The notes: a model not told the origin generated them from the letters alone. Counted from the stretch's first letter, positions 1-40,657 are shown. The stretch is DNA of 64,000 nucleotides from Hormiphora californensis (GCA_020137815.1 CM035358.1:6944001-7008000), one strand, 5' to 3'. A program made the numbers and translations.

Positions 1-64
1 AGGTTGTGTAATGTGTGCCCTAAATTGTGGTTGTGTGCCCTAAATCCATCAACTTCCTCTCCAG

Positions 65-945
<881 letters not shown>

Positions 946-6855: not shown

Positions 6856-9765
6856 CTACTCAGAGAAGGCCTTGGAAAACAACAGTGTTTTTAGATCAGT
6901 TTTGAACCTCTGTAAAGTCCTAGATCGACGGAGCTCCCGCGGAAGATTGTTCCATAGCTTAGGCCCTGATACACTGAAAGCCCTCTCCGTTGTTTTGTAT
7001 TTGGGATGCGGAGTTTCAAGAAGAAGATCATCATAATCTGCACGAAGTGTCATTGGTTTTTTCTTCCTCTTTTCCAGAAGGCCACTTAGGTATTCGGGTG
7101 CAAGGCCGTTCACACATTTATAGACCAGAACACAGGTTTTGAAATTGATCCTTTCGCTCACTGGTAGGAAATGTAATGCCTTACGCAACGTCGTTGTGCC
7201 TTGCCACCTCCTCTGTCCATAAATGAATCTAGCTGCTGCATTTTGTACCTTTTGTAACTCAGCAACATTCCGTTTAGTCATCCCAGACATCAGAGAATTG
7301 CAGTAGTCTATTTTTGAATGAACTAAGCTGCATACCAATATTGTCCTAAGCTTCCGAGATAGCTTTCCAGCAATTCGCCACAGATTAACCAGAGTAGATT
7401 TACATGACCTGACCACAGCCGTGACGTGCTCATCTAAGGACAGCTTCGAGTCAAAGTACACCCCAAGGTTCTTCGCCGAACTCGTTACCAATGAGGGCCC
7501 ACTATCTTCAAATAGCTGCATAGAGCCAACAGAACTACCACCTCTCGGGGACAAAATCAGTACTTCAGTCTTAGTTGGGTTAAGTTGAAGGAAGTTTGTC
7601 GTGAGCCACGCCTGTATGTCAGAGACACAGCGCTTTAACTTTTGTTCTACCTCTGAGATATCATCCGAGGAATATGCCGCATAGACCTGTGTATCATCCG
7701 CATAAAAGTGAATACCAACACCATGTCGATCAGCAATGGCTTCTAGCTCAGTCGTGTAACAAATGAACAATATCGGTCCTAAAATAGACCCCTGTGGGAC
7801 TCCGATGGATAGTTCGGCAAGGGCTGACTTCATATCCCCCAACACCACTGCAGCATTACGCCCCGTTAAGTAACTCTGAAACCAACTCAGAGTAGTCCCC
7901 TTTACTCCATACAACTTTTCTAGCCGCTTCAGAAGTATCGCATGATTCACTGTATCAAAAGCAGCACTTAAGTCTAACAACAAAAGTACTACCTTCGACT
8001 TGTCATCAGTCAGAGTCAGTAGATCATCAAAGATCCGTAAGGTGGCAGTTTCGCAACTTTTGTGTCGACGATATGCAGATTGTTTCTTCGAGAGTAAACT
8101 GTTATCCTCCAGGTGCCTTACAAACTGGTCCGCTGCACACTTCTCTATTAGCTTTCCAAGGAACGGAAGGTTACTCACCGGTCGATAGTTTCCCAAGTCA
8201 TCCGGGTCTAGATTTGCCTTCTTGATGGTTGGACGAATCAATGCCGTTTTTAAAGCCGTAGGAAAAACCCCCGATGACAAGCTATCATTAACTATTTTCG
8301 ACAAGATAGGAAGTAGTTCACCAAACAGTTTTCGTACAAAGGATGTTGGTATAGGATCAAGGGTACAGTGTTTCGTGCTCATTTCCATGATGGTAGACCG
8401 AAGCACCTCATCAGAAACCGGCTCAAATTTGAAAATCGGAACAGATGATGGTGAGTCACTTTGAGTAGTCATGGAGACAGGTTGAACGTGATTATGGCAC
8501 TTCTCCATTCCTCGATAGATTTTCTCAACCTTCCCTTTAAAAGCTCCCATGAAGGTGTCAGCAAGCTTGCCTTTTTCAATGTTCCCAGGCATGACTTCAA
8601 CATTTTCCCTCCCCAGAAGGTGGTTCGAAGTTTGCCAAGTAGCCCGAGGGTCATGCTGTTGTTCTTCGAGACGAGCCGCGAAGTAGTTTTCTCTTACTCC
8701 AGTCAGGATTTTATCAGTTTCCTTCTCCTGTGCTTTACAGTCCTCAAAGAAGTTGAGTATCACAACAGGGTCTGTTTTGGTCCGAAGAATTGCCCTATAT
8801 TTTCTTTCTTTCCTCCTTCTTTCCCTTCTTGCCCCCTGGCAGATCTCATAGTTCTGTGTGAACCATTTATTACTGCGAGTTTTAACCTTCCTAGTAACCA
8901 CGGGCGCCCGACTATCCATAAACCCCGTCAACACCGAGATATACAGTTCAACACACTGGTCCAGGTCATCAGGTAACTCATCACAGAGATCCGACTGAAG
9001 AATGTCTTCCCTAAGATCCTCAATGTCAAGGTCTTTCATTTTTCGGCTTGTAACTAGTTTAAACTCACTGTTAGAACTACAGCCTGCCACATTTAGAGAG
9101 AAGCTCACTAGTGAATGATCAGGAAGAGCAGGTGCCCTATAAGTTTCCAGTCCGTCCAACGCCGTAAGGTCAGCATCCCTGGTTAGTACCAAATCAAGTG
9201 TGCCACCCCTCACATGCGTAGGCCCGATAACATGTTGAGACCATCCCTCCGACAGAATAAGCGCTTTAAACTTCTGTGTGAATCGGTCAGTATCATCTTG
9301 GAATCTCACATTAAAGTCGCCCATGACAACAGGAACGCCGCCCTTTGATACAAAGGAATTTAGATAGCTGCCAAACTCAGTTATGAAGTGATTATAGTCA
9401 TTCCCTGTGCGATAGATAACAGCAAGCCGGACTCCAACACTGCCCTTCACGAAGATCTCCAGACATTCAAAAGACTTCGTGGATGTTTTACACGTAGTAA
9501 ACTTGATCTTATTCCGAATAATGAACGCCACTCCACCCCCTCGCTTCCCTTTCCTCGGTGCATTAACTAGAGTGTGCTTCCAATCCCCTACCTCCGCCGC
9601 CAGTGAAGATTCATCTAAGTTAAGCCACGTTTCAGTAAGAGCTAGAATCCCAAGTCCATTTTCGACCATCATTCCCATGACCGGATTAACCTTGTTCCGC
9701 AGGGAAAAACAGTTGCCAAGTCCCACCTTAATGGTCCTGCACCCTACCTTCCCTAAATCAGCCAC
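6856..9765 (-). CDS. LINE ORF2: apurinic-like endonuclease + reverse transcriptase
   Basis: LTETWL, GGGVA, MGDFN, TLDLV and PDH (endonuclease); NYRPVSNL, LLDLSAAFDTV, GVPQGSILGP and FYADD (RT); L2-like C-terminus RAFSVSGPKLWNNLP. Confidence 0.97.
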   Translation of the reverse strand: MADLGKVGCRTIKVGLGNCFSLRNKVNPVMGMMVENGLGILALTETWLNLDESSLAAEVGDWKHTLVNAPRKGKRGGGVAFIIRNKIKFTTCKTSTKSFECLEIFVKGSVGVRLAVIYRTGNDYNHFITEFGSYLNSFVSKGGVPVVMGDFNVRFQDDTDRFTQKFKALILSEGWSQHVIGPTHVRGGTLDLVLTRDADLTALDGLETYRAPALPDHSLVSFSLNVAGCSSNSEFKLVTSRKMKDLDIEDLREDILQSDLCDELPDDLDQCVELYISVLTGFMDSRAPVVTRKVKTRSNKWFTQNYEICQGARRERRRKERKYRAILRTKTDPVVILNFFEDCKAQEKETDKILTGVRENYFAARLEEQQHDPRATWQTSNHLLGRENVEVMPGNIEKGKLADTFMGAFKGKVEKIYRGMEKCHNHVQPVSMTTQSDSPSSVPIFKFEPVSDEVLRSTIMEMSTKHCTLDPIPTSFVRKLFGELLPILSKIVNDSLSSGVFPTALKTALIRPTIKKANLDPDDLGNYRPVSNLPFLGKLIEKCAADQFVRHLEDNSLLSKKQSAYRRHKSCETATLRIFDDLLTLTDDKSKVVLLLLDLSAAFDTVNHAILLKRLEKLYGVKGTTLSWFQSYLTGRNAAVVLGDMKSALAELSIGVPQGSILGPILFICYTTELEAIADRHGVGIHFYADDTQVYAAYSSDDISEVEQKLKRCVSDIQAWLTTNFLQLNPTKTEVLILSPRGGSSVGSMQLFEDSGPSLVTSSAKNLGVYFDSKLSLDEHVTAVVRSCKSTLVNLWRIAGKLSRKLRTILVCSLVHSKIDYCNSLMSGMTKRNVAELQKVQNAAARFIYGQRRWQGTTTLRKALHFLPVSERINFKTCVLVYKCVNGLAPEYLSGLLEKRKKKPMTLRADYDDLLLETPHPKYKTTERAFSVSGPKLWNNLPRELRRSRTLQRFKTDLKTLLFSKAFSE

Positions 9766-9782
9766 ACGCCCATCTTCACCAA

Positions 9783-10901
9783 CTAGTTTTTTGCATTCCT
9801 TAGTTTAAGAAGGAAAACAGGACAGTCAGGCGAACCGGCATTGTGTAAGTTGGCATTACCCTTCAGCTTAGGGTCACTGGCATTTTTACAGTTGGTGCAA
9901 CACACTTTCCCCCTGTTCTTACAATCCTTTGTCTTGTGGCCTTCCGCACAGAACATACATGTAGCCTGTGGTTGCTCGCATTCCCACGCTTTGTGGCCAA
10001 ATTTCTGGCAACGGTAGCACTGTGGAATATAGTACCGATCTTCCACCCTACAGGAAACATTTCTAACGAAAAGTTTTCCTCCCTTGACCAACAGGTCCCG
10101 TAGAGCGCAAGAAACTCTCAACCCCACGTTAACCCGTTCTCTCGCTCTCGATTTCCCAACATAGACAACCTCCAAAGTATGCCCCTGGTCTAATAGAGAG
10201 CTCACCTTAGAGTTCTTCATCCGAATCATCTCAACTATGGCACTATCCAAATCACTCCGGCCCATATCAACTGGAAATTCTTCCACGGGAAGTGGAAAGT
10301 CCTTAACCGTAACTTTAGGCAGTTTAATAGATGTCTTATAGGTCGCTGCCTCGGGAAGAACTGCCTTAAGCTGACTCTCAGCGGATTGAAGCATGTCCTG
10401 ATCGGGTAAGGCAATTATTACATCGCCATTGGCCTCCGCCCTCATGAAGGACACAGGTGTCGCCTTTAGAGCCTCAGAAGCTCGTTTTACAGCCGTATCT
10501 CCCGCATTACTAATCGTAATTTTTGCAGCAGGTTTCTTAAGAACTTCAGCAAATGACCCACCGAGATTCTCACCAGGACTCGCCCTTAACCCCACACCAT
10601 CACCCCGACGTAAGTCCATTTCTCCAACAAGTTTCTCTACTATGAAATCAGCGTGCTTACCAAGCTCACTCACAACACATCGAGCAATCTCATCTCCACT
10701 AGCCCCGGTCTGCCCAAACCCCTTAGCCTTCCCGCTGTCCACAGAATCAAAACACGGGGGGCATAGCCAGCATAATCCCACGAGTTTACTTACTTCGACG
10801 GGTACGGGCGGATCAGCATCATCTCGCTCCTCTTTGCACATCAAACATACCATCTTCTCTGTAACTGCTATCTCTGCAGCCGCCTTTCTCGTTATTGTCA
10901 T
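9783..10901 (-). CDS. LINE ORF1, gag-like with three CCHC zinc knuckles
   Basis: CYRCQKFGHKAWEC, CMFCAEGHKTKDC and CTNC..H....C; Cys-rich N-terminus; directly upstream of ORF2. Confidence 0.92.
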   Translation of the reverse strand: MTITRKAAAEIAVTEKMVCLMCKEERDDADPPVPVEVSKLVGLCWLCPPCFDSVDSGKAKGFGQTGASGDEIARCVVSELGKHADFIVEKLVGEMDLRRGDGVGLRASPGENLGGSFAEVLKKPAAKITISNAGDTAVKRASEALKATPVSFMRAEANGDVIIALPDQDMLQSAESQLKAVLPEAATYKTSIKLPKVTVKDFPLPVEEFPVDMGRSDLDSAIVEMIRMKNSKVSSLLDQGHTLEVVYVGKSRARERVNVGLRVSCALRDLLVKGGKLFVRNVSCRVEDRYYIPQCYRCQKFGHKAWECEQPQATCMFCAEGHKTKDCKNRGKVCCTNCKNASDPKLKGNANLHNAGSPDCPVFLLKLRNAKN

Positions 10902-11607
10902 CTTCTAGATGGGGAATTGAGGTGCCTCACGACAACCTCAAATTAATTTGTTTAAAGTAGTGTTGAAAAGTTTGAAACATTGCGTTTTTTTCTTGTTGTT
11001 TTTACATGTCTTACTCTTAGTTACTTAAAAATTTACCTGCAATTGCAGCCTCTAACACATATCTTATTGTTTCATAACGCAACTACTGGAGATGAAGAAG
11101 ACGCCACTGAAAACTTGAAGCACTGCAATACACGCTGGGTGACATTGGTTCTGAATCCTTCCGTAAGTTTTTTTGAGATCCAAAATAATCACTGCGCTGG
11201 TAATCTTACTTGTATCCCGGCCCTGTTTACGACTTTCTTTTTTTTGCAGAATCAACCAGACAATCGCTAACAAAAGACACTGGCGAGCTAACTAGCAGAC
11301 AACTGCAGTCAGATGAAGCATCTTCGTCTTCTTCTTCGAGTGTCGGGTGTGAGACCCTAAAGAACTATCGCGACTTTCGCCATTGTGATTTGGTCGACAC
11401 TGGTGTGAGTGGCCTATGACAACACACCTTCTACACAACGATAGATGGGCTAAACAAGGAGGACAGAAGGAGTATCTTTTGCAATCATTAATTGGAGGAC
11501 CAACAACTTTAATTGAGTCACTGTTGAAGCGGTAATGAAGTCCCAGAAAGCTCTCCTGAACATCAAATGTTATCTAACTACAACTCAACTGAACTATCGC
11601 GATACCG

Positions 11608-12853
11608 TTGGCACGAACTATTATCTTGACATGGGCTCAGAGTGACCAAAAACTTCCTACTTCTTATCGATTTTGTTTGATTATCTGAGCTCCTGACCTG
11701 CACCGTTTGTAACGGTGATTTTTGTACACACTCTGCTTTGATGGAGAAGCACAGCAATGCTTTCACACAGTGGTGTGAGAGTAATGGACTGACAGATGAA
11801 GCATGTCCCTCAGCGAGTGTGATGAAGGCAGTAGAGTGTCTGCTAAATGATGCTGCGTGCCAGAGCCACGGTAACAATTTTGATTCATCAAGAGTTACTG
11901 CAGCTAAACTCAACACGAAGAATAAGCCTGAGTTGATAAATATGATCCAGAATTATGCTTGGTTTTGTCACATGGTGGTCCTGCCATATGTTGTGGAAGT
12001 GGACGCTGAGTTGTACAAAGATACGACAAAAAAGCTAGAGGAGACAGAGAATAAGCTGGAAGAGGTAACAGGGAAGATCAATTCCATGCAAGAGACCGTT
12101 ATTAAGTCTCAGGAAGCGTTGTTATCTTGTCAAGAGACGGTGATAACTCTCCAGGGCTCTCTCCTCTCTGAGAAGAGCAAGAAGATTGAAGAGACGATGT
12201 CTTCTGTCAAAGAAGAACTGAAGGGCTATGCAGCAGTTGTGAAGAAGAGCTGCACTGCCTCGCTTGCTCCTAGGAAGCTACAAGCAGCCATGGTGAAGGC
12301 GTCCAGTGTGGAGGACAGGTCCAGCAACCTGATTTTCTACGGGTTGGAGGAGTCTGTTGGAGAGGAGAAGACTGAGGATGTTGTTCTGAATGTTTTGGAA
12401 CACACAAACGAGAAGCCGAAACTGGTAAGCTGTAGGAGGCTTGGCGAGAAGAAGGAAGGGAAGAAGCGGCCTGTCAAGGTGGTACTTCACAACCGAGATA
12501 TGGTACGCTCCATTCTGGCAAGGTCTGGGATGCTGAGGGAAGTGGAGGGAATGGAAGATGTTTACATTTGTCCAGATAGGACTGTTGAAGAGAGAAGTGA
12601 GAGAAAGAGACTCGTTTCTAAGTTGAAGCAGCAGAGAGAGACTGAGCCACACGTTAAGTGGGGTATTGTGAGAGGTAGTGTGATTAGAAGAGATGAGAAG
12701 AAATGAGACAGACAATTCATATTAATTTCTATACAATATTATTTGATTTAGAGTGTTTCCGCGGTGTAAGCGCTCATTCGGTGAGCCTGCCTCGTTCTTG
12801 TGGGTACATGATATTGTTTCAGTATTCATTTGAACGTTCAAAATCAAAATCAA
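11608..12853 (+). mobile_element. ORF1-only non-autonomous LINE derivative
   Basis: Single ORF1-like CDS, ~130-bp 3' UTR, (TCAAAA)n tail at ~12838-12853, and a candidate 6-bp TSD ATACCG (11602-11607 / 12854-12859). Confidence 0.65.
11740..12706 (+). CDS. CR1/L1-type ORF1-like protein (coiled coil + RRM-like domain)
   Basis: Long coiled coil, then DRSSNLIFYGLEE...RRLG...RPVKV...VYICPDRTVEERSERKRL, typical of LINE ORF1 proteins. Confidence 0.8.
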
Positions 12854-13344
12854 ATACCGATAGTGCTCAATCGACGGGGCGAGGGCATGGACTATTATTT
12901 AGCAGCATCAGTAACTACATCCATTACTATTGAACATTTACCATGGACATTGTGGCCGAGAGTACAGACAATTTAATATGTAATTGTGTTGTGTGATAGA
13001 ACTCTATAGTCCTTCCCAATCGTGTAAAATAAAGGCTATTTTGGGAAATCTCGGGGCCGGGGGGGGGGGGGGGGGTTCAACACCTGTTCCAATGTGACCA
13101 TAATGGTACCCCAAATCACATCCTAAAAGTATACGACTCTAAAGTCGGATTTTTTGAAACTGTCGCACCCCTGAAATAACAAAATTTGTCATATCTCCGA
13201 TTCATGATAAGATAGAGACTTGAAATTTGGAGGTTCGGAAGAACTTAGCAAGATCTTCGTAACCTCCAAATTTCAAGTCTCTATCTCATCAGGAACCGGA
13301 CTTATGGTCATTTAAAGAAATTTGAAAACTAAAAAACGACAGTT

Positions 13345-14178
13345 GGGGGGGACATGTTAATTTTGTTAACTTTGTTAATATTAACATCGAAAAAATAGGT
13401 GATTTATTAACATAATTAACAAAAGTTAACAAACATTAACAAATGCCATTTATACCATCTAAAGTCCCTTTAGCACGTGTTTTTTGGTATTACACTTGCT
13501 GCATGTTGTTCTGCGAACAAAGATATTCCTTCTGCATGATTTTCATGCCCCTAAGCCGTCTACTACAGCCTTCCCACAACGATTTGTTCCATTTTGCAAA
13601 TTTTAACAAAAATTAGCCAAACTGAACTATGTACAATTGAAGTCAAATGACACTAATTCACATTTTCCAACCTCAAAAACTTAATAAGACTCATGAATTT
13701 ACCTTCAATCGAAAAATATCCCAAAAATAATTTTTTCTAAAAAAACACAAGGATTTGTAGCGAAGCAAATTTTCAATCTTTAACAAAAAAAACGATTTTG
13801 GGATTTTTTTTTCTTATTTTTCGAACAGAAACGTTGTGCATCACTTTCTCTCGTCTGAAGAATGGATTATCAATGAAAAAATCACATTCAAGTGACATTT
13901 TAGACGCTAAATTGAAATATTCGTACCTTTTAATTTTCATCAATATGGATCCAAAAACCTTGTATTTTGGACTTTGGATATCGGAGGAGGCCTTGCATGG
14001 GTATACAAACGTTAGATAAGTCATTAAACTATAAAATTAAACCAGTTAAAGTCGTATTATCAACCGATAACTTCAATATTTTGGGATTTGTTAATTTTGT
14101 TAATTTTGTTAATTAACGTTAATTAACAAAATCGGAAAAAAGAGGTGATTTATAAACAATTAACATGTCCCCCCCCCC
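13345..14178. mobile_element. G-run-terminated MITE (Merlin-like), no TSD retained
   Basis: GGGGGGGACATGTTAATT...AATTAACATGTCCCCCCC, with subterminal GTTAATTTT repeats. Confidence 0.8.
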
Positions 14179-14891
14179 GTGTAGCCAAGAGAGGAGAGTT
14201 GGTTGTAAGCGGCCCACTGATCTGTGTGTATAGTAGTACCGGGAAGGACATGTCGTTGTATCAGGGGCAGAAGGGTTCCAGCATCTCGTCGGTTCAGGGG
14301 GCACTGGATCAGAAAACAATGGCCTGTTCTGCGACAAACGCCTCCTAGGACCCACGCTCCTTCCCGAAGAGTTCCACGATTGTATTTCCTCCGTCCCATC
14401 ATCGCTTCATCTAACTCAACTATTTCGCCAGGTCCCCCGATCGGTTGAGGGTTGTTGAGGATCCAAATTGCTACTGCTTCTAGGAGGGAAGCCTTCCACT
14501 CGGTTACAGATTTCCGGGACAATCCTGTGTACGCTGCTGTGTCTACATTCGTCAGGTTCTTGGAACTGAAGCAGTAGAGAAGTTGTAGTAGGCTGGAGAA
14601 TGGTATCTTGGAATTTGACAGGTAGGAACCGAAACGGCAGCTTTTGGTCTTACTGCATCCAGTAGCTGAGCAACGGAAAATCCACAAGTCAGGTGATTTT
14701 GTAGCAGAGCAGGGTTTAAGGATCATGGTACTGGTGCAGGCACATTGGACTGTAGTGAGGAGGATCCCCTTCTGAAGCAGGAATTGCCGGGAGGACTCCT
14801 CGTCCTTGGTGATAGTCATCATCTCGGAGAAGATTCCAGGTGAAGAGGGTTGAGAAGGCATAACTGATGTTGATACTAAGACTGTAAACAC
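14179..14891 (-). pseudogene. Truncated Merlin / ISXO2 (IS1016/IS1595-like) DDE transposase
   Basis: Zn-ribbon-like Cys pairs, then IVELDEAMMGRRKYNRG...WVLGG...TLLPLIQRHVLPGTTIHTDQWAAYNQL. Cut by the MITE before the catalytic Glu segment. Confidence 0.9.
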
Positions 14892-15296
14892 TCAACTATA
14901 TATACTAACTGCTGTGCAATCAAACGTCACAGGGAATTCGTATAGACATGAGGATTACCATGTCTAGCACTATTGTTAGTCGTCACCCACCTCATTATAT
15001 AGGCGGTCCCCGGTGTCACTGTCTCCGACGCTATTATAAGTCTCACATCTGATAATTACTATGGCTGTCTCACATGTAAAATATGGTCCCTTAACTTTCT
15101 AGGGTCCTTAAAAGGGTCCCTTAAAGGGTCCCTTAACCGGTCGGGCTTCTTCTCACCTGCCAGTAAAAAATTACCCGTAATGGTGAGTATTACTTACTGA
15201 GTAACTTACCCGGTGAGCTGTCAGGCCTCTGACCACAGTTCTCTTGACGAAATGAGAGGGTCAGGTCAATGCTCTGACAGCCAGTGTGTAACTTAC

Positions 15297-18200
15297 CCGA
15301 TGTGTAACTTTCTCCAGGAGATGTCCGATTATTCGTTTCAGTAACTCCGCCTCAATATTATGTAACTCCGACATGGCCATGACCAACTTTAGTGCTAACT
15401 CCTGTGTAGATTGTTAAGGAATTGATTTTGTAGTACTAAAATATCTACTTCTCTTCTGCATTGATACTGGTAACACATAGCAAATAAAAGAAAGAGTAAA
15501 GGAATGGCAACCATGAAAACCGAACCATTTAACCAAATATGTTAACCATGGTAACCCAGCCCTACCTGAACGCATATGTTAACCATGGTAACCCAACCCT
15601 ACCTGAACGCATATGTTAACCATGGTAACCCAGCCCTACCTGAACGCATATGTTAACCATGGTAACCCAGCCCTACCTGAACATATATGGTAACCATGGT
15701 AACCCAACCCTACCTGAACGCATATGTTAACCATGGTAACCCAACCCTACCTGAACGCATATGTTAACCATGGTAACCCAACCCTACCTGAACGCATATG
15801 TTAACCATGGTAACCCAACCCTACCTGAACATATATGTTAACCATGGTAACCCAGCCCTACCTGAACATATATGGTAACCATGGTAACCCAACCCTACCT
15901 GAACATATATGGTAACCATGGTAACCCAGCCCTACCTGAACATATATGTTAACCATGGTAACCCAACCCTACCTGAACATATATGGTAACCATGGTAACC
16001 CAACCCTACCTGAACATATATGTTAACACAGCTGGGAGGGTTACACTCCTGCCATGGGAAGCTGGTGGGTAAAAGGAATTGTTCGATGTCACCAAACAGG
16101 AAGGATTCCTTACTGCTTACATACTTCTCGAATATGCTGAGGATAGGATAGTTATACACGAAACGGTTACAGGTTAAATTACAGGTTAAGTTATGTAGTT
16201 AACCAGAACTGGACTAAAGGGGTTTTAGAGCTCAACTAGGACTGAAATGAACAGATTGAACTAATATTCAAATTATTCAATTATCTAATTGTAATCAACT
16301 AACTAAAATAAGGAACTCACCTTTTCTCCAGGGTGCTGTACCGCTCAATGCTCTTATTCTCAATCTCATAATCACTCCCCTTTATGTAGCCATGTGATAT
16401 AAATGTCTCCAGCAGTAGGGGGATTATCGTCATCATTGTGTGGCGACAGTTACCTGGTGGTAGGGAGGGGGGGGTCTCATGTTGGTTTTGTTGTTTTTGT
16501 TGTTTTTGTTGGTACGCGAATTATGTACTAACAAACCGCATATAGGTATACTACCAACAAACACCAACAAAACCAACAAAAGTTATTTTTGTTAGTTTTG
16601 TTTGTTAGTTTTGTTGGTTTTGTTAGTACTAACAAAACTAACAAAATTAACAAAACTAACAAAACATTTTGTTGGTTTTGTTTGTTAGTTTTGTTGGTTT
16701 TGTTAGCACTAACAAAAACTAACAAAACATTTTGTTAGTTTTGTTTGTTAGTTTTGTAGAGATTTGTTAAAGTTTTGTTGACTCAACAAAACAACAAATC
16801 TCAACAAACTAACAAACCTCAACAAAACAACAAATCTCAACAAACTAACAAATCTCAACACAACCAACAAATCTCAACAAAACAACCAATCTCAACAAAC
16901 TAACAAATCTCAACTCAACCAAAAAATCTAAACAAAACAACAAATCTTAATAAAACAACAAATCTCAACAAACTAACAAATCTCAACAAACCAACAAATC
17001 TCAACAAAACAACAAATCTCAACAAACTAACAAATCTCAACTCAACCAAAAAATCTCAACAAAACAACAAATCTCAACAAAACAACAAATCACAACTCAA
17101 CCAACAAATCTCAACAAAACAACAAATTTCAACAAACTAACAAATCTCAACTCAACCAACAAATCTCAACAAACTAACAAATCTCAACTCAACCAACAAA
17201 TCTCAACAAAACAACAAATCTCAACAAATCTCAACAAAACAACAAATCTCAACAAAACAACAAATGTCAACAAAATAAAAAATCTCAACAAAACAAATCT
17301 CAACAAACCAACAAATCACAACAAAACAACAAATCTCAACAAAACTTCATTAAGATTTGTTGTTTTGTTGAGATTTGTTGTTTTGTTGAGATTTGTTGGT
17401 TGTGTCGAGATTTGTTAGTTTGTTGAGATTTTTTGGTTTGTTGAGATTTGTTGGTTGTGTTGAGGTTTGTTAGTTTGTTGAGATTTGTTGTTTAGTTGAG
17501 ATTTGTTAGTTTGTTAAGATTTGTTGTTTTGTTGAGATTTGTTGGTTGTGTTGTGATTTGTTTTTTGTTGAGATTTGTTGTTTTGTTGAGATTTGTTGGC
17601 TGAGTTGAGATTTGTTAGTTTGTTGAGATTTGTTGTTTTGTTGAGATTTGTTGGTTGTGTTGAGATTTGTTAGTTTGTTGACATTTGTTGTTTTGTTGAG
17701 ATTTGTTGTTTTGTTGAGATTTGTTGTTTTGTTGAGATTTGTTAGTTTGTTGAGATTTGTTGTTTTGTTGAGATTTGTTGGTTGTGTTGTGATTTGTTAG
17801 TCCTTTGTTATAATATTATTTTTGTTAGTCACAAACAAAGCCAACAAAATTAACAAACAAAACCAATAAACCAACATAACCAACAAACAAAACCAACAAA
17901 ACCAACAAACCAACAAAACCAACAAACAAAACCAACAAAATAAACAAACAAAACCAACAAAACCAACAAACAAACAAAACCAACAAACAAAACCAACAAA
18001 CAAAATTTTTGTTATGTTTGTTTTGTTTGTTGGTGCCAAAAAAACGTCCATACTACCAACAACCAACATGAGACCCCCCCCCCCCCCCGTAGGGAGGGAG
18101 TTGATTAAGAGGGAGTAGGGAAGGGAGGGAGGGAGTTGTTGAGAATTAGGGGGTTGTGGGGAGTTGTTGAGTAAGGGAGTAGGGAGTAGGGAAGGGAGGG

Positions 18201-20991
18201 AGGGAGGGAGTTGATTAAGGGAGTAGGGAGTAGGGCGGGAGTAGGGAGTTGTTGAGTAAGGGAGTAGGGAGTAGGGCGGGAGTAGGGAGAAGGGAGGGAG
18301 GGAAGATAGTGAGTTGTTGAGTAAGGGAGTAGGGAAAGGAGTAGGGAAGGGAGTAAGGAACTGAAATTATATCAGCAGGACAAACATGAAATTACCTAGA
18401 ACAAGAACTAATCTCTCCTCCGCTGTTGTTTTGGTTGGTTGGTCAATGTCTCCTCCCCCACCATTAGAAGTTATACTTGCATCTTTCTGGAAAATGTAGC
18501 AGAATGTCAGCAGGGGAAAAGTGTCCGGCATCTATCTATCTACCTCGTCCCCTAGATCAGACACACTCCCTCTTTTTAGTAAATTTAACAATCTCTATTC
18601 TCTCTCCTAAGTAAAAGTAATGATCTCTCTATTCTCTCTCCTTAGTAAAGGTAATGGTCTCTCTATTCTCTCTCCTTAGTAAAAGTAATGATCTCTCTAT
18701 TCGGAGGGGGGCCGGCTGAAGTTTTTGAAGTTTTTGAAGTCAACTTCAAAAACTTCAAAGAGAAACTTAGGGTGGAAAACTTCAAAAACTTCAAAAACTC
18801 ATATCACCCCCTGTCCGGAGTACTGCTTTTTTTTTCTCTGTGTGTGTGTTGCAACACTGGAATCGTGCGCGTTCAGGGCATGTTTCAAGTTCCACGTGTC
18901 ATAGCGCAGCCACTAATTAGATTAAGGAATAATCATTCACACTAGGTTCAAGCCCAGACAATTCCTAACACTCTGGATCAAACCCGAACTTGAATGGATA
19001 AACACAAGCTAGGTTATGGGCTCTTTTGTAAAAGTTGTCATGATTTTGTACACCACGATATTTGTCAACCTAGACAACTTCTCCGGCTCACTGAGAGAGT
19101 AATACCCCGAAAATAAAAAAAAGGTGAGATATGTCCATCTGGAAATTGTCTGCTGAAGAAGTTAGTGAAATTCTTTTTGAAAACCGACATAAAATGTGGA
19201 CAGTAGAGATGCGGGATGGACATAATGCTCATAATTCGTGTGGTGCGTCACAGTGCTGACACATTGAAGTTTAGAGAGTACTGCTTTTTCCGGAGTACTG
19301 CTTTTTCTCTCTCTGCCATGAGAGCGCGTAGGGGGGCTGTGTGTGAGGACTGTGAGTGTGTCGGGGTGTATCCAGACTGTGTAGAAGTGTGTGGTTACAT
19401 TCTGTCTCTTACACGATTTAGTGTACCGAATATTACAAGACTAGAATGTTATAATTATACGTGTCACACAATGCTTTTCCCTCAGCTCTCCTGACCCATT
19501 TCTCAACCAATATCTGCTACCTCATCGCTCAATTATCCCATCACTCACAGCAAACCTATACCGTTGTAACCTCACCATCAGCTACCCAATCTCTCTGCTA
19601 CTCCATCGTTTAGCTACCCTACCCTTAGAGTTAGCTAATCCACCAGTTAGCTACCCCACTGCCCTGATCCCCTCATCTATTTCATCTCTCAGCTATCATA
19701 CTGCTCAGCTACCCTGCCCTGCTAGGTATACATCAGATCTTAATGGATGCCAGTAAAGCCCCTCCTCCCCCAAGATGTCCCTCAGACCTCATTAGATACC
19801 TCTGACCCTCCTAGATACTCTCGAGATAATGTAGCAGGCTCTGAGGGGTATCTACTAGTATGTAAGGAGTATCCAATGAAGTTTGCGGTATCTATATCTC
19901 AAATACGCCTGCCAGAATGTCTCAAATTTTGTTCTATACCTCTAAAAACCCCTATAGTAGAGTCGATAACTACATCGACCTCTCCCAATTGTTCCAGTTT
20001 TTGTCACATCTGTTTGGAGCCTCGACACGACCTCTAAACAGGTGTTACTTTTTCACAAACTGTTTTCATCTTGGTGTAATCAGCAGTTGAGATGTTGCTG
20101 ATCATAACAAAAACCTGACTAAATTTTTTCAACTTGGGGTAAAACCATGGGTGTCAAAAGTTAGCTCTAGGTCCCCTGAGTAACCAACTGGAGACTCCAA
20201 GAGATATTTCAAGCCGTTCTCATGTAATCATTAATCCCGGTAGAGCACATATTTGAGTATGGACGTACGTGCAATTGCCTACAACCTCAACTTTAATGTA
20301 TAACGTTAATGTGCGTCTCTCTCTTTTCTCCCCCTTGAGAAAGAGTTATCTCGCGCGGCGCAACCGCACGTGCGGTTTTTCCAGAGAGAGTGAGAGACAT
20401 ACAATAACATGTAAACAGCCTGCCAGCGCTCACGTACGTCCGCATTGTATTTTTTTCTCCACCGGGATTAATGATTACGGGAGAACGGCTTGGAATATCT
20501 CTTAGAGTCTCCGGATGGTTACTCAGGGGACCTAGAGCTAACTTTTGACACCCATGGTTTTACCCCAAGTTGAAAAAATTTAGTCAGGTTTTTGTTATGA
20601 TCAGCAACATTTCAACTGCTGATTACACCAAGATGAAAACAGTTTGTGAAAAAGTAACACCTGTTTAGAGGTCGTGTCGAGGCTCCAAACAGATGTGACA
20701 AAAACTGGAACAATTGGGAGAGGTCGATGTAGTTATCGACTCTACTACTAGATACTCCTATTTTCTTCATAGAAACCACGCACCAGACTCTAATATCTTA
20801 TGAGGTGCCCCTCAAAAAACTATTAGACATCCCTAAAACAATTATAGATACCATAGAAATCATTAGATACTCCTTAGACCATAATTCTAGATACCCCTCC
20901 TCCCGTAAGGTCCCATGCAAGAGCAGGGTTAAATCCCCCGGGCCCGGATCTTGTTGGATCTGAAGGCTCTCTCTCTCTTTCTCTCTCTCCC

Positions 20992-21069
<78 letters not shown>

Positions 21070-21091
21070 GTTTCGGAAATTGAGAAAAAGA

Positions 21092-21179
<88 letters not shown>

Positions 21180-24100
21180 CAGAGAGAGAGATGAGATGGT
21201 GAAGAGACGGCTGAAAATTGGTTCTGATAGCCGGAATAATATAGTCAGAGTAGCAGTCAGTGTAGTATAGGGTCTGAGAGATTTCTAGAATTCTAGGAGG
21301 CTCTGAGGGGCATCTAGAATGGTCTAAGGAGTATCTGATGATTTCTATGAAGAAAATAGGAGTTTCTAGGGGTTTTTAGAGGTATATACCCTGCTAACTT
21401 AAATAACCCGCCAGTCCCGCTAGCGCGCTCTCAATAAACAGCCAGTCCAGCGGCAGATTATTTCCCACTGGCAGGTTATTTATTTTGAACATTCAAAGTG
21501 TGTGTAAATGATCAGTTCTTACTAAAATACAGAGGGAACACTATGTGCAACACTTACACACTACATTGGAGAGAAAGAAAGGACACATTCCGTCAATTAT
21601 CTCCCCTTTTGTCTCACTATCTCTTCCTCTGTGTTATGTGTGACATGCCCCTTATCAGGCTATTTCTTTCACTCTCTTTCCTTAGCAACTGCTTAGTAAC
21701 TGTTACCAAACAGTGTACACTCAATTGTGAGGTGTTTTAACTATTTCTCAGTCCTCTTTGAGTGTTTTGATTAGCGGCGCGCTGGGAGAAAATATATAGA
21801 ACAAAATTTGAGAGACATTCTGGCAGGCGTATTTGAAATATAGATACCGCAAACTTTATTGGATAATCCTTACACACTAGTAGATATATCCCTCAGAGCC
21901 TGCTACATTATCTCGAGAGTATCTAGGAGGGTCAGAGGTATCTAATGAGGTCTGAGGGACATCTTGGGGGAGGAGGAGGAGGGGCTTTACTGGCATCCAT
22001 TAAGATCTGATGTATACCTAGCAGGGCGGGGTAGCTGAGCAGTATGATAGCTGAGAGATGAAATAGATGAGGGGTTCAGGGCAGTGGGGTAGCTAACTGG
22101 TGGATTAGCTAACTCTAAGGGTAGGGACTTGGGTAGCTAAACGATGGAGTAGCAGAGAGATTGGGTAGCTGATGGTGAGGTTACAACGGTATAGGTTTGC
22201 TGTGAGTGATGGGATAATTGAGCGATGAGGTAGCAGATATTGGTTGAGAAATGGGTCAGGAGAGCTGAGGGAAAAGCATTGTGTGACACGTATAATTATA
22301 ACATTCTAGTCTTGTAATATTCGGTACACTAAATCGTGTAAGAGACAGAATGTAACCACACACTTCTACACAGTCTGGATACACCCCGACACACTCACAG
22401 TCCTCACACACAGCCCCCCTACGCGCTCTCATGGCAGAGAGAGAAAAAGCAGTACTCCGGAAAAAAGCAGTACTCTCTAAACTTCAATGTGTCAGCACTG
22501 TGACGCACCACACGAATTATGAGCATTATGTCCATCCCGCATCTCTACTGTCCACATTTTATGTCGGTTTTCAAAAAGAATTTCACTAGCTTCTTCAGCA
22601 GACAATTTCCAGATGGACATATCTCACCTTTTTTTGATTTTCGGGGTATTACTCTCTCAGTGAGCCGGAGAAGTTGTCTAGGTTGACAAATATCGTGGTG
22701 TACAAAATCATGACAACTTTTACAAAAGAGCCCATAACCTAGCTTGTGTTTATCCATTCAAGTTCGGGTTTGATCCAGAGTGTTAGGAATTGTCTGGGCT
22801 TGAACCTAGTGTGAATGATTATTCCTTAATCTAATTAGTGGCTGCGCTATGACACGTGGAACTTGAAACATGCCCTGAACGCGCACGATTCCAGTGTTGC
22901 GACACACACACAGAAGAAAAAAAAGCAGTACTCCGGACAGGGGGTGATATCTCCTAAACCGTTGGAGATAGGCCCTATGTTGCTTCATAACTCTTATATA
23001 AAGTTGCATATTCCGAACAAGATGCACCCCTTTAAAAAGCCTATAGTCACTCATAAACCATTAAAACTGGTCTAGCCCAAAAAAAGTCATGCGCACACAC
23101 AAAATTATGAAAATATCCCATTATTCCTCGAATTAGATGAGATGGAGACTTCATTTTGGCACGTACCCCCACTAACTCGAGGCCGCTGATGATTTTAGTG
23201 TCCATATTTTTTTCACTACTCCCTTCATAAAAAATTTGCATTTTGTGAAACTGGCAAAGAGGGTGTGGCCCCAAAAAAAATTTGAAAATTTACTTCATAA
23301 TTTTTTAACACTTTCTTAGCATTTTCTAGGCAATTTTTTGAGTTATGGAATGAAAATAAAATCAGTTTTTACAAAAAATTTAAATTTTTTACACCAAATT
23401 GTGCCATGGATTTCACGGCTAGGAATCATTGTAAATATCCTAATTTTCGGTAGAAAAAGGGCAGACAAGGACGGATAACTTTGCCACACTATGTATTAAG
23501 CATGAAACTAACCTAAACAAGTGTAATAATAGTCACTGATAGCATATAAAAGTAGTTTAGAGTTTTTGAAGTTTTTGAAGTCAACTTCAAAAACTCAAAA
23601 AGTAGGGTGGAAAACTTCAAACTTCAAAAACTTCAGCCGGCCCCCCCCTCTATTCTCTCTCCTTAGTAAAAGTAATGATCTCTCTATTCTCTCTCCTTAG
23701 TAAAAGTAATGATCTCTCTATTCTCTCTCCTTAGTAAAAGTAATGATCTCACTATACCTCGTCTCCTAGATCAGTTAGCTTCTTCAGGCAGTATCTCTCC
23801 CTCTCCTTAGTAAAATTAATGATCTCTCTATTCTCTCTCCTTAGTAAAACTAATGATCTCACCTCGTCTCCTAGATCAGTTAGCTTCTTCAGGCAGTATC
23901 TCTCCCTCTCCTTAGTAAAATTAATGATCTCTCTATTCTCTCTCCTTAGTAAAACTAATGATCTCACCTCGTCTCCTAGATCAGTTAGCTTCTTGAGACA
24001 GTATCTCTCCCTCTCTTTAGTTAATTTAACAATCTCTATTCTCTCTCCTTAGTAAAAGTAATGATCTCACCTCGTCTCCTAGATCAGTTAGCTTCTTGAG

Positions 24101-39100: not shown

Positions 39101-40404
39101 ATGTTACAATCTCCCTCCCCTCCCGTCAGCGTCACAACCGTTACCTAGCAACGAATTGTTAAATGTTACAATCTCCCTCCCCTCCTGTTAGCGTCACAAC
39201 CGTTACCTAGCAACGAATTGTTAAATGTTACAATCTCCCTCCCCTCCCGTCAGCGTCACAACCGTTACCTAGCAACGAATTGTTAAATAATACAATCTCC
39301 CTCCCCTCCCGTCAGCGTCACAACCGTTATCTAGCAACGAATTGGTAAATACTACAATCTCCCTCCCCTCCCGTCAGTGTCACAACCGTTACCTAGCAAC
39401 GAATTGTTAAATACTACAATCTCCCTCCCCTCCTGTCAGCGTCACAACCGTTACCTAGCAACGAATTGGTAAATACTACAATCTCCCTTCCCTCCCGTCA
39501 GCGTCACAACCGTTACCTAGCAACGAATTGTTAAATACTACAATCTCCCTCCCCTCCTGTCAGCGTCACAACCGTTACCTAGCAACGAATTGTTAAATAC
39601 TACAATCTCCCTCCCCTCCTGTCAGCGTCACAACCGTTACCTAGCAACGAATTGGTAAATGTTACAATCTCCCTCCCCTCCCGTCAGCGTCACAACCGTT
39701 ACCTAGCAACAAATTGTTAAATACTACAATCTCCCTCCCCTCCCGTCAGCGTCACAACCGTAACCTAGCAACGAATTGTTAAATACTACAATCTCCCTCC
39801 CCTCCCGTCAGTGTCACAACCGTAACCTAGCAACGAATTGGTAAATGTTACAATCTCCCTCCCCTCCTGTCAGCGTCACAACCGTTACCTAGCAACGAAT
39901 TGTTAAATACTACAATCTCCCTCCCCTCCCGTCAGCGTCACAACCGTAACCTAGCAACGACCAGGGGTAATTGTTTAACCAATGCGATTTAAATGCCCCT
40001 AAAATACAGAATAGAAGGTATAATTTCTTACAAATGGTTGGTCTCGGTTCGGATTTTTCCCCACATAACTAATGATCTTGTTTTCAGAGCAGTGTTCGAT
40101 AAAGGGCTTGCAGTCCTCGCCACAGATTATCAGAGCTGAACAGATGAACAGTTGTTACGGACTAGAAGAAAGGAAATATAGCTATGTTAACTAATCTATG
40201 GTAAATATAATGGTAAATAATCTATGGTAACTATGGTAACTAAGCTATGGTAACTATGGGAAAGAGAGACACAATGAAAGGTTTCCTGAACTCACCCACA
40301 ATATCTGTGATCCGTTCCCCAAACCGTTCTCCTCTGATAGTTATTTTACATCCGGGAGAGACGACAGTAGGGGATAGCCCATTCACCAAGGGCTGTGTTC
40401 CCAT
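15297..40404 (-). CDS. EXOC2: Exocyst complex component 2 (Sec5). Exons: 40404-40296, ~40135-40032, 37780-37636, 37352-37238, 37096-37047, 36819-36713, 33068-32890, 32635-32527, 32426-32292, 32043-31938, 31634-~31519, 31335-31157, 31022-30871, 30330-30188, 25827-~25687, 24302-24174, 18486-18396, 16453-16321, 16136-16010, 15401-15297; last exon(s) not found
   Basis: The spliced translation is colinear with animal EXOC2 as I recall it: MGTQPLVNGLSP..KITIRGE (IPT/TIG), VVTLTGGEG, YLLNNH, KKDKADRIRNALNVIERFRFLFGLP, YDIVLNDYKKAKSLF, DPAW, FVDEL..YLDGSL, ENWQ..TALP, EERLVLVLGNC, FPWQECNPP. Splice phases are consistent. Confidence 0.93.
15541..16027 (-). repeat. 37-bp tandem array (~13 copies) containing an EXOC2 splice donor
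   Basis: Unit (minus) GTTAACATATATGTTCAG|GTAGGGTTGGGTTACCATG. Confidence 0.95.
16468..18088. mobile_element. Merlin-like MITE/foldback with an internal inverted 18-bp satellite
   Basis: TIR GGGGGGGTCTCATGTTGG; 8-bp TSD GTAGGGAG (16460-16467 / 18089-18096); the internal ACAAATCTCAACAAAACA array flips orientation at ~17345. Confidence 0.9.
18096..18360. repeat. Degenerate purine-rich (GGGAGTA)n repeat
   Basis: Directly visible. Confidence 0.8.
18805..22946. mobile_element. Large foldback element with CAC...GTG termini and 4-bp ATAT TSD (Chapaev- or Sola-like, non-autonomous)
   Basis: ATAT|CACCCCCTGTCCGGAGTACTGC...GCAGTACTCCGGACAGGGGGTG|ATAT. Inverted arms >1.2 kb; the centre carries (CT)n facing (AG)n. 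Confidence 0.85.
19955..20747. mobile_element. 793-bp MITE with TAG...CTA termini and 3-bp TSD CTA (Academ-like), copy 1
   Basis: ~285-bp TIRs starting TAGTAGAGTCGATAAC. Removing it restores the match between the host foldback arms. Confidence 0.88.
23740..24210 (-). repeat. ~104-105-bp tandem repeats duplicating an EXOC2 exon end and donor (CLKKLTDLGDE|gtgag)
   Basis: About 5 copies here, plus a remnant at ~18540 separated by the 5-kb nested insertion; embedded in a ~32-bp minisatellite. Confidence 0.85.
24343..25325. mobile_element. Non-autonomous DNA transposon with TTAA TSD and GG...CC termini (Kolobok-like)
   Basis: TTAA|GGCCAGAGGGGGGGGTCC...GGACCCCCCCTCTGGCC|TTAA, plus an internal ~140-bp inverted repeat (24677-24980). 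Confidence 0.85.
26142..26148 (+). promoter_or_regulatory. Candidate TATA box of protease gene 1
   Basis: TATAAAA about 45 bp before the ATG; the paralog has TATAAAA at 33641, about 40 bp before its ATG. Confidence 0.55.
26190..27912 (+). CDS. Papain-family (C1A, cathepsin L-like) cysteine protease with one C-terminal ShKT domain; exons 26190-~27199, 27378-~27524, ~27780-27912; nested in an EXOC2 intron
   Basis: Signal peptide, I29-like prodomain (INKFSIMTEQE), QGGCGSCWAF, NHAV, RNSWG, and CEDLKTSC...C...NCAATCKWC. Confidence 0.93.
28090..28835. mobile_element. Putative non-autonomous element with TATAAT/ATTATA ends and short hairpins (Crypton-like?)
   Basis: TTATAACACCCCCCAGTG repeats, repeated CTCGCAGGCTCG, hairpin CTCGACCTTCGGTCTCG, and an imperfect inverted repeat 28543-28600 / 28740-28835. 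The family assignment is a guess. Confidence 0.4.
29024..29163. mobile_element. ~110-bp hAT-like MITE, copy A (with duplicated left end and a small hairpin)
   Basis: TIR CAGGAACCGACCGAA; 8-bp TSD ACTGTTAG. Confidence 0.88.
29182..30219 (-). repeat. 40-bp near-perfect tandem array (~26 copies) containing an EXOC2 splice donor
   Basis: Unit (minus) CTGGTTACTGTTATGAGACGCATCTGTGTCAGG|GTAAGTG; only one variant base seen (~29618). Confidence 0.97.
30368..30431. mobile_element. 64-bp hairpin / minimal MITE flanked by TA
   Basis: CGGAGATCGGTTAGTCGA...TCGACTAACCGATCTCCG, inside a ~60-bp intronic repeat. Confidence 0.6.
30697..30895 (-). repeat. 28-bp tandem array (7 copies) containing an EXOC2 splice donor
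   Basis: Unit (minus) TGAGGTTGCCCTCTACCTTATGA|GTAAG. Confidence 0.95.
31771..31879. mobile_element. hAT-like MITE, copy B
   Basis: Same sequence as copy A; 8-bp TSD ATGTACAC. Confidence 0.9.
33683..36386 (+). CDS. Papain-family (C1A) cysteine protease with two C-terminal ShKT domains; exons 33683-33837, 33986-34102, 34429-34682, 35164-35307, ~35415-35679, 35827-35937, 36082-36386; nested in an EXOC2 intron
   Basis: Signal peptide MLFFIALIVSAAA, NQGGCGSCWAF, GCKGG, PHHAMAV, KNSWG, CSDKNDRCKEWADRGEC...CKKSCNIC and CSDGLSDCARW...CRKSCGVC. Confidence 0.93.
34118..34212. mobile_element. hAT-like MITE, copy C (right end truncated), in protease gene 2 intron
   Basis: Matches copies A, B and E. 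Confidence 0.85.
34843..35160. repeat. ~80-100-bp intronic tandem repeats
   Basis: Three copies of CATTCCATGCCAAGCTCGACCCCCTTTACAAATGTAAAGGAGGGTTAGAACAT. Confidence 0.85.
36822..36986 (-). repeat. 33-bp tandem repeat (5 copies) abutting an EXOC2 acceptor
   Basis: GGTGAGATTGTTACTTTAACTAGGGGAAGAGCA; related units recur at ~31030-31120 and ~37360-37410. Confidence 0.9.
37736..39960 (-). repeat. 61-bp tandem array (~36 copies) containing the EXOC2 exon-3 splice acceptor
   Basis: Unit (minus) TAACAATTCGTTGCTAG|GTAACGGTTGTGACGCTGACGGGAGGGGAGGGAGATTGTAGTATT. Confidence 0.97.
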
Positions 40405-40657
40405 AACTGTGCAAGTACTTATTTACATCCTGGTTAGAACAGGACGCAAAGTTATTGGAGGTTATAAAAGTTATTGGGGGATAGTTATTATAGTGACAGA
40501 GAAAGAGCTGTGGAGAAATATAGAGTATACTGCAAGTTTGATGAATAAAAACCAGTCAATAATAAATTAAAACACCCGTCACCCATCATAATCCACGTGA
40601 TTCTGATCTGTATTTAAACTCTCTCAACACTTCTCAATTAAACTCTCTTAACACTTC

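What the first reader, a model, noticed from the sequence alone, without database searches (positions are those of the whole stretch)
15541..39960. Gene-wide pattern of splice-junction arrays: five EXOC2 introns are built from tandem copies of the adjacent exon/intron boundary
Seen: five tandem arrays with unrelated sequences and unit lengths (37 bp x ~13, ~104 bp x ~5, 40 bp x ~26, 28 bp x 7, 61 bp x ~36) each straddle a real splice site of the same conserved gene. Each unit is exon sequence plus GT or AG plus a few intron bases. Weaker cases sit at intron edges elsewhere (474-590, 36822-36986, 37430-37465, 55910-56130). Ordinary minisatellites have no reason to be centred on splice sites. 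Inference: a recurrent mutational process or a selective filter amplifies splice junctions. The spliceosome must then pick the exon-proximal site among up to dozens of near-identical ones, which suggests strict exon definition, recursive splicing, or tunable unproductive splicing with NMD. I do not know of a description of this as a genome-wide system.
Basis: partly seen in the sequence, partly recalled or inferred. Interest (0 to 1): 0.88.

Follow-up and report, generated by a model that had tools for sequence, protein, structure and literature searches.

The report
Splice-junction minisatellites in comb-jelly EXOC2
Five exon edges of a comb-jelly vesicle-tethering gene (EXOC2) have been copied head to tail 5 to 36 times into the neighbouring intron, yet assembled RNA leaves the exon at the genuine signal at the two donor arrays it covers, so these are likely tolerated, recently grown repeats of a kind already known from lancelets and humans, unusual mainly in how many and how long they are here.

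Summary
The five arrays are real and each straddles a true splice site of a ctenophore EXOC2 gene: 20 exons splice to a stop-free 820 aa protein, 62% identical to the Mnemiopsis orthologue. Four are donor ladders (37, 103, 40, 28 bp units); one is a 36-copy acceptor ladder (62 bp). The 40- and 62-bp units are multi-copy in DNA of two samples; a related species is single-copy at the three junctions checked, so those arrays are young. One RNA contig uses the exon-proximal donor at the 28- and 40-bp arrays; another excludes the first acceptor copy. All 83 spare sites would give premature stops. The kind is known (lancelet 'mirages', human F7 and CBS repeats), and this scan noted it before in at least 11 other genomes. 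Their number fits geometry once introns are shrunk to pre-insertion size (5 of 18 straddle, 6.6 expected), and 0 of 28 introns in neighbouring genes have one. Unexplained: only junction-anchored arrays grew large (4 of 4 with 7 or more copies, post hoc), and one dispersed repeat hugs five EXOC2 exon edges in one orientation. No evidence for regulation.

The parts
15297..40404 (-). EXOC2/Sec5 host gene, 20 exons in the window (820 aa); the last ~165 aa of the orthologue were not found in the window
15537..16027 (-). 37-bp donor ladder at exon 19 (exon ends 16010); 12 spare donors; 10-nt shared sequence at the breakpoints; each unit holds AG|GT
   Evidence: orthologue single-copy; not covered by any laid run
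23691..24208 (-). 103-bp donor ladder at exon 16 (exon ends 24174); intron part is made of the dispersed 34-bp repeat, which supplies the working GT
   Evidence: not covered by any laid run
18487..18702 (-). Far end of the same ladder: diverged fifth spare donor near 18549 followed by what is likely the original ~57-nt intron; cut off from the rest by an inverted-repeat element
18705..23647 (.). Inserted element with long inverted arms (489, 335, 155 nt, 98-100%) splitting the 103/34-bp array; ends read by eye
29182..30220 (-). 40-bp donor ladder at exon 14 (exon ends 30188); 33 exon nt + 6 intron nt + 1; 25 spare donors, 24 of 25 exon parts identical to the exon
   Evidence: RNA contig stops exactly at 30188; raised depth in X1 and X2, single-copy depth in X8
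30697..30895 (-). 28-bp donor ladder at exon 13 (exon ends 30871); 6 spare donors; 3-nt shared sequence at breakpoints
   Evidence: RNA joins exon 13 to exon 14 without a spare unit; X8 contig leaves the array after the donor hexamer
37736..39960 (-). 62-bp acceptor ladder before exon 3 (exon starts 37780); 17 intron nt + AG + 45 exon nt; 35 spare acceptors, each with a branch-like TAAC 15 nt upstream; AG|GT in 35 of 36 units
   Evidence: RNA junction, X2 multi-copy, X8 single-copy
37430..37465 (-). Single diverged upstream copy of the exon 4 acceptor plus ~25 exon nt (decayed two-copy case)
25325..25675 (-). Dispersed intron-edge repeat family, cluster 15 nt behind the exon 15 donor; other clusters at 23662-24171, 31029-31120, 36825-36977, 37362-37414 and 18607-18695
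   Evidence: same place in X8 at two acceptors (records 23 and 30)
26190..27912 (+). Nested papain-family protease gene (3 exons) inside EXOC2 intron 14
33683..36387 (+). Second nested papain-like gene (7 exons) inside EXOC2 intron 6; two of its junctions are joined in an RNA contig
   Evidence: record 21

Best explanation
These are 'mirage'-type minisatellites: short tandem duplications that caught an exon edge, likely arose by replication slippage or repair between short shared sequences, likely grew by unequal exchange, and likely persist because the site next to the intact exon is used, as RNA shows for two donor arrays. In a gene whose introns were about 60-350 nt before repeats and transposons swelled them, a large share of survivable 30-100 bp duplications must cross a splice site: those wholly inside an exon are removed by selection, and few fit wholly inside so short an intron. 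At donor ladders the first GT after the exon wins (first-come or oriented scanning, shown for human F7). At the acceptor ladder the last AG is inferred to win through exon definition with the donor 145 nt downstream, as for the human CBS 68-bp junction duplication. Any slip to a spare site gives a premature stop and would be cleared by nonsense-mediated decay, so the arrays would be close to neutral. Shown: anatomy, frame consequences, presence in two samples, absence in a relative at three junctions, donor choice at two arrays. Inferred: mutational origin, acceptor choice, decay of errors, neutrality.
For: Orthologue is collinear and single-copy over all five junctions. RNA run X7, record 17 (259 nt, depth 3) matches 30188-30330 with 0 differences and stops at the proximal donor although 38 nt of array were offered; its other 47 nt cover 30871-30917 (depth 3 at 30896-30914, bin mean 0.55 = 47x3/257). 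RNA record 9 joins exon 2 to a unit beginning GTAAC, which is not the first copy (GTTAC, the one with the original intron context); 11 of 35 listed units, the last among them, are identical to it. 83 of 83 spare sites give a stop. Null model: 5 of 18 native arrays straddle, 6.6 expected, P(>=5)=0.87; EXOC2 alone 5 of 14 vs 5.8. 13 purely intronic native arrays and none in exons show a general duplication flux filtered by selection. Units are unrelated, and exon parts differ from the exon by 0-3% in four arrays. X8 (organism B) has single-copy depth or a run-through contig at the 28-, 40- and 62-bp junctions, so those arrays are young rather than conserved. Precedents: PMC3087553, PMC3902484, PMC1557585, PMC2630376.
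Against: Geometry explains the number but not the size: straddling arrays have 4.9-35.9 copies, intronic ones 1.9-5.0 (Mann-Whitney P=0.0003; 4 of 4 arrays with 7 or more copies straddle, 1.5 expected, P=0.016; threshold chosen after seeing the data). With transposon DNA counted as target, EXOC2 shows 5 of 16 vs 1.6 (P=0.016; all genes 5 of 23 vs 3.1, P=0.18). All six duplicated junctions are in one gene (6 of 19 vs 0 of 28, Fisher P=0.003, selection-biased). The RNA is two contigs of depth 2-3 from one mixed-plankton library; whether that animal carries the arrays is unknown, and poly(A) RNA cannot show decayed products. The acceptor contig ends inside the repeated part, so the last copy is compatible, not proven. 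The 37- and 103-bp arrays were not covered by any laid run. Insertion boundaries used in the null were read by eye.
Confidence: 0.68

Rival explanations
1. Exon-anchored growth bias: duplications seed anywhere, but those touching an exon expand and stay homogeneous far more, for example because the conserved exon anchors unequal recombination or repair in otherwise heterozygous introns, or because splicing-linked DNA damage recurs there.
For: Only junction arrays are large. Two unrelated donor units both end at or one base after the sixth intron base. Exon parts remain 97-100% identical to the exon in four arrays. Intron indel heterozygosity is high in one ctenophore (PMC8527503, passages).
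Against: Five arrays in one gene, chosen because they were striking; threshold post hoc; breakpoints of the other three units lie 17-68 nt into the intron; youth alone would give homogeneity; 0 of 28 neighbouring introns have one.
Confidence: 0.2
2. The 62-bp acceptor ladder is removed in steps: the first AG is used with the original ~80-nt intron, the GT right behind it regenerates a donor, and a second cut reaches the last AG (recursive splicing, or a new Rogers-type intron). This concerns site choice only and is compatible with a neutral origin.
For: 35 of 36 units hold AG|GT with a branch-like TAAC at -15, within the 9-43 nt range seen for such words at the 47 intron ends. Duplication of an AGGT segment can make a working intron (PMC3265369, abstract and introduction).
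Against: AG|GT is common background here (exon ends AG at 29 of 47 donors; exon starts GT at 16 of 47 acceptors) and only 3 of 5 ladders have it. The RNA junction carries the GTAAC-type start, which both models predict. The gene already splices multi-kb introns with nested genes, so exon definition is likely available.
Confidence: 0.15
3. The ladders are a regulatory device that tunes EXOC2 output through unproductive splicing and NMD.
For: 83 of 83 spare sites give premature stops. In human 6-16 and CBS intron 13 the next one or two spare donors are partly used (PMC1557585 introduction).
Against: Three arrays are missing in a close relative; units are unrelated; no unit length being a multiple of three has a chance of 0.13 by itself; the RNA contigs seen use the productive sites.
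Confidence: 0.05
4. Assembly artefact: long-read errors or collapsed haplotypes created the arrays.
For: The window has at least one likely indel error elsewhere (QDPR frame break).
Against: Unit depth is far above single-copy in two samples of two studies (40-bp bin 3477 in X1 and 36991 in X2; in X2 the 62-bp unit reaches about 190,000 against 327 on its flank; X1 may be the window's own source). Units carry recurring variants. A 4.9-kb element sits inside the 103/34-bp array.
Confidence: 0.02

Closest known systems
Amphioxus 'mirage' minisatellites (Adh3, BflGb6/BflGb9, TnC, PGBD5). Seen: passages of PMC3087553 and PMC3902484; the original Adh paper was not held and is known to me only through these
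   Same: Tandem units spanning an exon-intron boundary, at donors and at acceptors, unrelated units of 10-160 bp, more than one per gene, spare splice signals kept, normal mRNA made.
   Different: Here a ctenophore; five large plus one decayed case in one gene; up to 36 copies against 2-7 in the globin and PGBD5 cases read. Length polymorphism and somatic instability, reported in amphioxus, were not measured here.
Human boundary VNTRs: F7 IVS7 (37 bp x5-9), 6-16 intron 2 (25 spare donors), CBS intron 13, LMNB2, PDGF. Seen: abstract, Introduction and Discussion of PMC1557585
   Same: Donor ladders in which the most upstream GT is used; similar unit sizes and copy numbers.
   Different: One array per gene in those cases; F7 units carry only 4 exon nt; scanning was shown by mutation there and is only inferred here.
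Human CBS 844ins68. [quoted passage not shown]
   Same: Duplicated intron-end/exon-start in which the downstream copy is used and the upstream exon piece is removed.
   Different: Two copies there, 36 here; here AG|GT in nearly every unit also allows stepwise removal.
Intron gain by tandem duplication of an AG|GT segment (Rogers model). Seen: abstract and introduction of PMC3265369
   Same: A duplicated AG|GT segment is spliced out without changing the protein; three of five units here hold AG|GT.
   Different: Here the duplication spans an existing intron end and no new exon position has been made; two ladders lack AG|GT.

Membership tests
Mirage / exon-boundary minisatellite | Head-to-tail units of minisatellite size | tested here: met
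   28-103 bp units, 5-36 copies, 95-99% matches
Mirage / exon-boundary minisatellite | Unit spans a genuine exon-intron boundary and the terminal unit overlaps the real exon | tested here: met
   Orthologue-checked model and junction counts
Mirage / exon-boundary minisatellite | Spare copies keep GT or AG | tested here: met
   83 spare sites with the dinucleotide intact
Mirage / exon-boundary minisatellite | Normal mRNA is made from the exon-proximal site | tested here: inconclusive
   Met for the 28- and 40-bp donors; first copy excluded at the 62-bp acceptor; 37- and 103-bp not covered; one low-depth RNA run whose animal's alleles are unknown
Mirage / exon-boundary minisatellite | Copy-number instability between alleles or cells | not testable with these tools
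   Only collapsed contigs were offered; their depth is no copy number
Recursive splicing (ratchet point) | AG immediately followed by GT inside the intron | tested here: inconclusive
   Present in 3 of 5 ladders, but background is 29 of 47 donors and 16 of 47 acceptors
Recursive splicing (ratchet point) | Splicing intermediates or lariats at the inner sites | not testable with these tools
   No nascent or lariat data among the runs offered
Introner-like mobile introns (for the dispersed intron-edge repeat) | Whole introns alike, with both ends supplied by the element | tested here: not met
   Introns 3, 5 and 12 share only their 3' ends, introns 15 and 16 carry the repeat from the 5' side; no intron has it inverted at both ends
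Genome-wide splice-targeted amplification system | Splice-site overlap above geometric expectation and spread over many genes | tested here: not met
   Window only: 5 of 18 vs 6.6 expected; 0 of 28 other introns. No genome was held, so the genome-wide test itself remains open

The most novel reading that the evidence does not exclude
In this ctenophore lineage exon edges are hotspots of repeat growth: junction-anchored minisatellites selectively expand to dozens of copies, the 36-acceptor ladder is cleared by stepwise splicing, and a dispersed repeat family that offers a donor on one strand and a branch point plus pyrimidine tract on the other colonises intron ends, together rebuilding splice sites and inflating introns genome-wide.
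Probability: 0.15. Interest if true: 0.7.

Novelty: new member of a known kind. Interest (0 to 1): 0.3.

Why it matters
As it stands it extends a known oddity to ctenophores (no paper on it turned up in searches; 'minisatellite' does not occur in the main text of the one ctenophore genome paper checked, supplements unread). It offers a natural test bed: 35 spare acceptors with the same upstream context as the real one let one ask directly whether an early-branching animal picks 3' splice sites by exon definition or by stepwise cutting. It also shows one route by which 60-200 nt introns swell to kilobases, and it is a trap for gene prediction and read mapping. If the size bias of junction arrays held genome-wide, it would point to a mutational link between exon edges and repeat instability that I did not find measured in print.

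Tried and rejected
No whole genome was held, so the genome-wide test could not be run. A scan of metagenome contigs for the dispersed repeat gave 1 locus, L001, without any tandem repeat: a chance match. Run X10 (RNA by guess) laid 0 contigs on 39880-40430: no information. X7 had no contig on the array side of 39899 and none on exons 7-12: holes in filtered contigs prove nothing, so I do not count this against array-containing transcripts. X7 depth in the bin holding the 40-bp array edge exceeds what record 17 explains; a dispersed insert in the same bin fits it as well as an array contig would, so it is unresolved. Depth ratios between X1 and X2 at the arrays (3.6- and 10-fold) are not copy numbers and were not used as such. 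P0003 runs from exon 2 through a single-copy exon 3, but it includes translated dispersed-repeat sequence and one residue change, so it looks like a gene model of a relative, not a transcript of this species. A protein search with exon 15 found nothing. The 1-kb and 2.2-kb arrays were laid only at their edges, and the 37- and 103-bp arrays not at all, so their presence in reads is untested. The 'with TE' rows pair native-only arrays with transposon-inclusive lengths and overstate enrichment; one search is the fair version. In one search one cluster is counted twice (25325 and 25346); one search counts it once (5 of 17 vs 7.0). The per-unit divergence block skipped units and was redone. Introner reading of the dispersed repeat rejected (one end only). 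Look-ups for earlier notes on this genome and on the dispersed repeat gave nothing relevant. The original amphioxus Adh paper was not held.

Full report
Observation. Tandem Repeats Finder returns all five arrays at the stated places: 37 bp x13.3, 103 x4.9, 40 x26.0, 28 x7.1 and 62 x35.9. I built the minus-strand gene by coordinates: 20 exons from 40404 to 15297, GT-AG at 19 of 19 introns, 820 aa without a stop. A search with exon 7 found a Mnemiopsis leidyi protein carrying Sec5 and TIG domains; tblastn places it collinearly on the window's exons and the spliced model is 61.6% identical to it over 825 columns. The host is therefore EXOC2 of a ctenophore; the species was not determined. The orthologue is single-copy across every array junction, which fixes the real sites: donors after 16010, 24174, 30188 and 30871, acceptor before 37780. 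Each junction word recurs 12, 5, 25, 6 and 35 times in its intron, and the exon 4 acceptor once; only 4 of 1334 exon-interior control words recur.

Are they real, and how old? No genome was held, but public runs were. I laid 4 of the 10 listed runs on 30150-37835 and 4 on 39880-40430, five different runs in all. Two samples of organism A from two studies show depth far above single-copy at the 40- and 62-bp units; X1 may be the window's own source, X2 is another sample. X8, a relative with many exon differences, has single-copy depth at the 40-bp junction, a contig that leaves the 28-bp array right after the donor hexamer (record 23), and a contig that runs from the first 62-bp unit straight into unique exon 3 sequence (loose end at 39902). 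So three arrays post-date the split from organism B, or were lost there. Exon parts of the units differ from the real exon by 0.1%, 2%, 3% and 0% (40, 28, 62, 103 bp). The 103-bp ladder has a longer history: a diverged copy followed by a ~57-nt intron lies 5 kb away, beyond an element with long inverted arms.

Which site is used? RNA run X7 has no listed difference from the window over exon 14. Its record 17 matches 30188-30330 and ends exactly at the proximal donor although 38 array bases were available; its other 47 bases cover the end of exon 13 up to 30917 (depth rows and bin arithmetic). Both donor ladders are thus left at the first GT. Record 9 joins exon 1, exon 2 and 36 bases of exon 3 beginning GTAAC; the first ladder copy, which keeps the original intron context, begins GTTAC in the window and in X2, so it is not the source; 11 of 35 listed units, including the last, match (a 36th unit with a changed GT is not in that list). 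This is thin: two contigs of depth 2-3 from a mixed library, from an animal whose alleles are unknown, and poly(A) RNA hides decayed products. Using any of the 83 spare sites gives a premature stop.

Is overlap with splice sites more than chance? Among arrays with units of 20 bp or more, outside inserted elements, 5 of 18 straddle, 13 are intronic and none is exonic. After collapsing arrays and removing inserts (ends read by eye) the median intron is 168 nt, and a random non-exonic duplication of these unit lengths would straddle 6.6 times in 18 (P=0.87). Counting transposon DNA and its arrays gives 5 of 23 vs 3.1 (P=0.18) and, for EXOC2 alone, 5 of 16 vs 1.6 (P=0.016). The first baseline is the apt one if duplications seeded in short introns, as the remnant short introns at array ends suggest. 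Seven other genes in the window have 0 duplicated junctions in 28 introns. Against the purely neutral reading: straddling arrays are the only large ones (Mann-Whitney P=0.0003; 4 of 4 with 7 or more copies, 1.5 expected, P=0.016; post hoc, one selected gene).

Mechanism. Likely origin is a local duplication: 10 and 3 shared bases flank the 37- and 28-bp units, the 40-bp junction has one extra base, and the 62-bp junction lacks part of the original intron end. Growth by unequal exchange is inferred from the interspersed unit variants and general minisatellite behaviour. First-donor use matches the oriented scanning shown for human F7 (PMC1557585). Last-acceptor use needs downstream information, most simply exon definition with the donor 145 nt away; the gene already handles 3.6-5.7 kb introns with nested genes. 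Stepwise removal is possible because 35 of 36 units hold AG|GT, but that word is common at these junctions (29 of 47 donors, 16 of 47 acceptors).

A second feature. One dispersed 22-34 bp repeat occurs 29 times in the window, all in EXOC2 introns. Five clusters start 3-15 nt from an exon edge and all five point away from the exon; a sixth is the cut-off end of the intron 16 array. At acceptors of introns 3, 5 and 12 its reverse strand supplies a TAAC word 13-17 nt before the AG and the pyrimidine tract; at intron 16 it supplies the working donor. It sits at the same two acceptors in organism B (records 23, 30), so it is older than the three dated ladders, and its depth in all three DNA runs suggests a family of many copies. 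It is not an Introner (one end only). Orientation may be a selective filter; this is untested.

Comparison. Tandem repeats over exon-intron boundaries are named 'mirages' in amphioxus, occur at both ends, and do not disturb splicing (PMC3087553 passages; PMC3902484 passages). Human F7, 6-16, CBS, LMNB2 and PDGF have donor ladders of up to 25 spare sites (PMC1557585 abstract, Introduction, Discussion), and CBS 844ins68 is an intron-end/exon-start duplication resolved at the distal copy (PMC2630376 passages). This scan has 19 earlier notes of the kind in at least 11 genomes (unchecked AI notes, seen after I had reached the mirage reading). I found no paper on it in ctenophores or as a genome-wide count; supplements were not read and the original Adh paper was not held.

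Verdict. Real, a new member of a known kind, dense in this gene, most likely near-neutral. Interest 0.3, for the 36-acceptor ladder as a test of site choice and for the unexplained size bias and intron-edge repeat.

Noticed in passing
window 18607-37414 (six clusters): Dispersed 22-34 bp repeat found only in EXOC2 introns of this window, 3-15 nt from five exon edges and always pointing away from the exon; it supplies branch-like and pyrimidine sequence at three acceptors and the donor of intron 16, and is shared with organism B at two acceptors.
   Followed up: partly
window 26190-27912 and 33683-36387 (+): Two papain-family protease genes nested antisense in EXOC2 introns 14 and 6, both with cysteine-rich C-terminal tails (ShK-like by eye, not tested); one has 2 introns, the other 6.
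   Followed up: partly
window 18705-23647: 4.9-kb insert with nested long inverted arms (98-100% complementary) that splits the intron 16 array; an inner palindromic piece near 19955-20747 recurs near 48185-48975.
   Followed up: partly
window 16480-18090: Foldback-like element in intron 17 built of 18-bp and 9-13-bp units in inverted orientation.
   Followed up: no
window 24345-25324: About 1-kb element with short inverted ends flanked by TTAA (piggyBac-like by eye) inserted into the intron 15 repeat cluster.
   Followed up: no
window 30331-30655: 61-bp x3 intronic array resembling the exon 14 acceptor region, two of three copies with AC in place of the AG, separated from it by a ~100-bp hairpin insert; possibly a decayed acceptor ladder.
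   Followed up: partly
window 280-350 (+): Two similar acceptor-plus-exon-start words about 50 nt apart in the plus-strand gene at the window's start; possibly a decayed two-copy case outside EXOC2. This intron was not among the 47 counted.
   Followed up: partly
window 29040-29165, 31771-31878, 34118-34212, 57830-57905, 58177-58285: A ~110-bp short interspersed element, at very high depth in all three DNA runs laid.
   Followed up: no
window 1-15296: The last ~165 aa of EXOC2 are not in the window, so this stretch, with plus-strand exons, a reverse-transcriptase-like frame near 6800-10900 and a transposase-like frame near 14200-14900 (both by eye), may all lie in one EXOC2 intron.
   Followed up: no
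window 60860-61026 (+): Frame break in exon 3 of a QDPR-like gene, likely an assembly indel.
   Followed up: no
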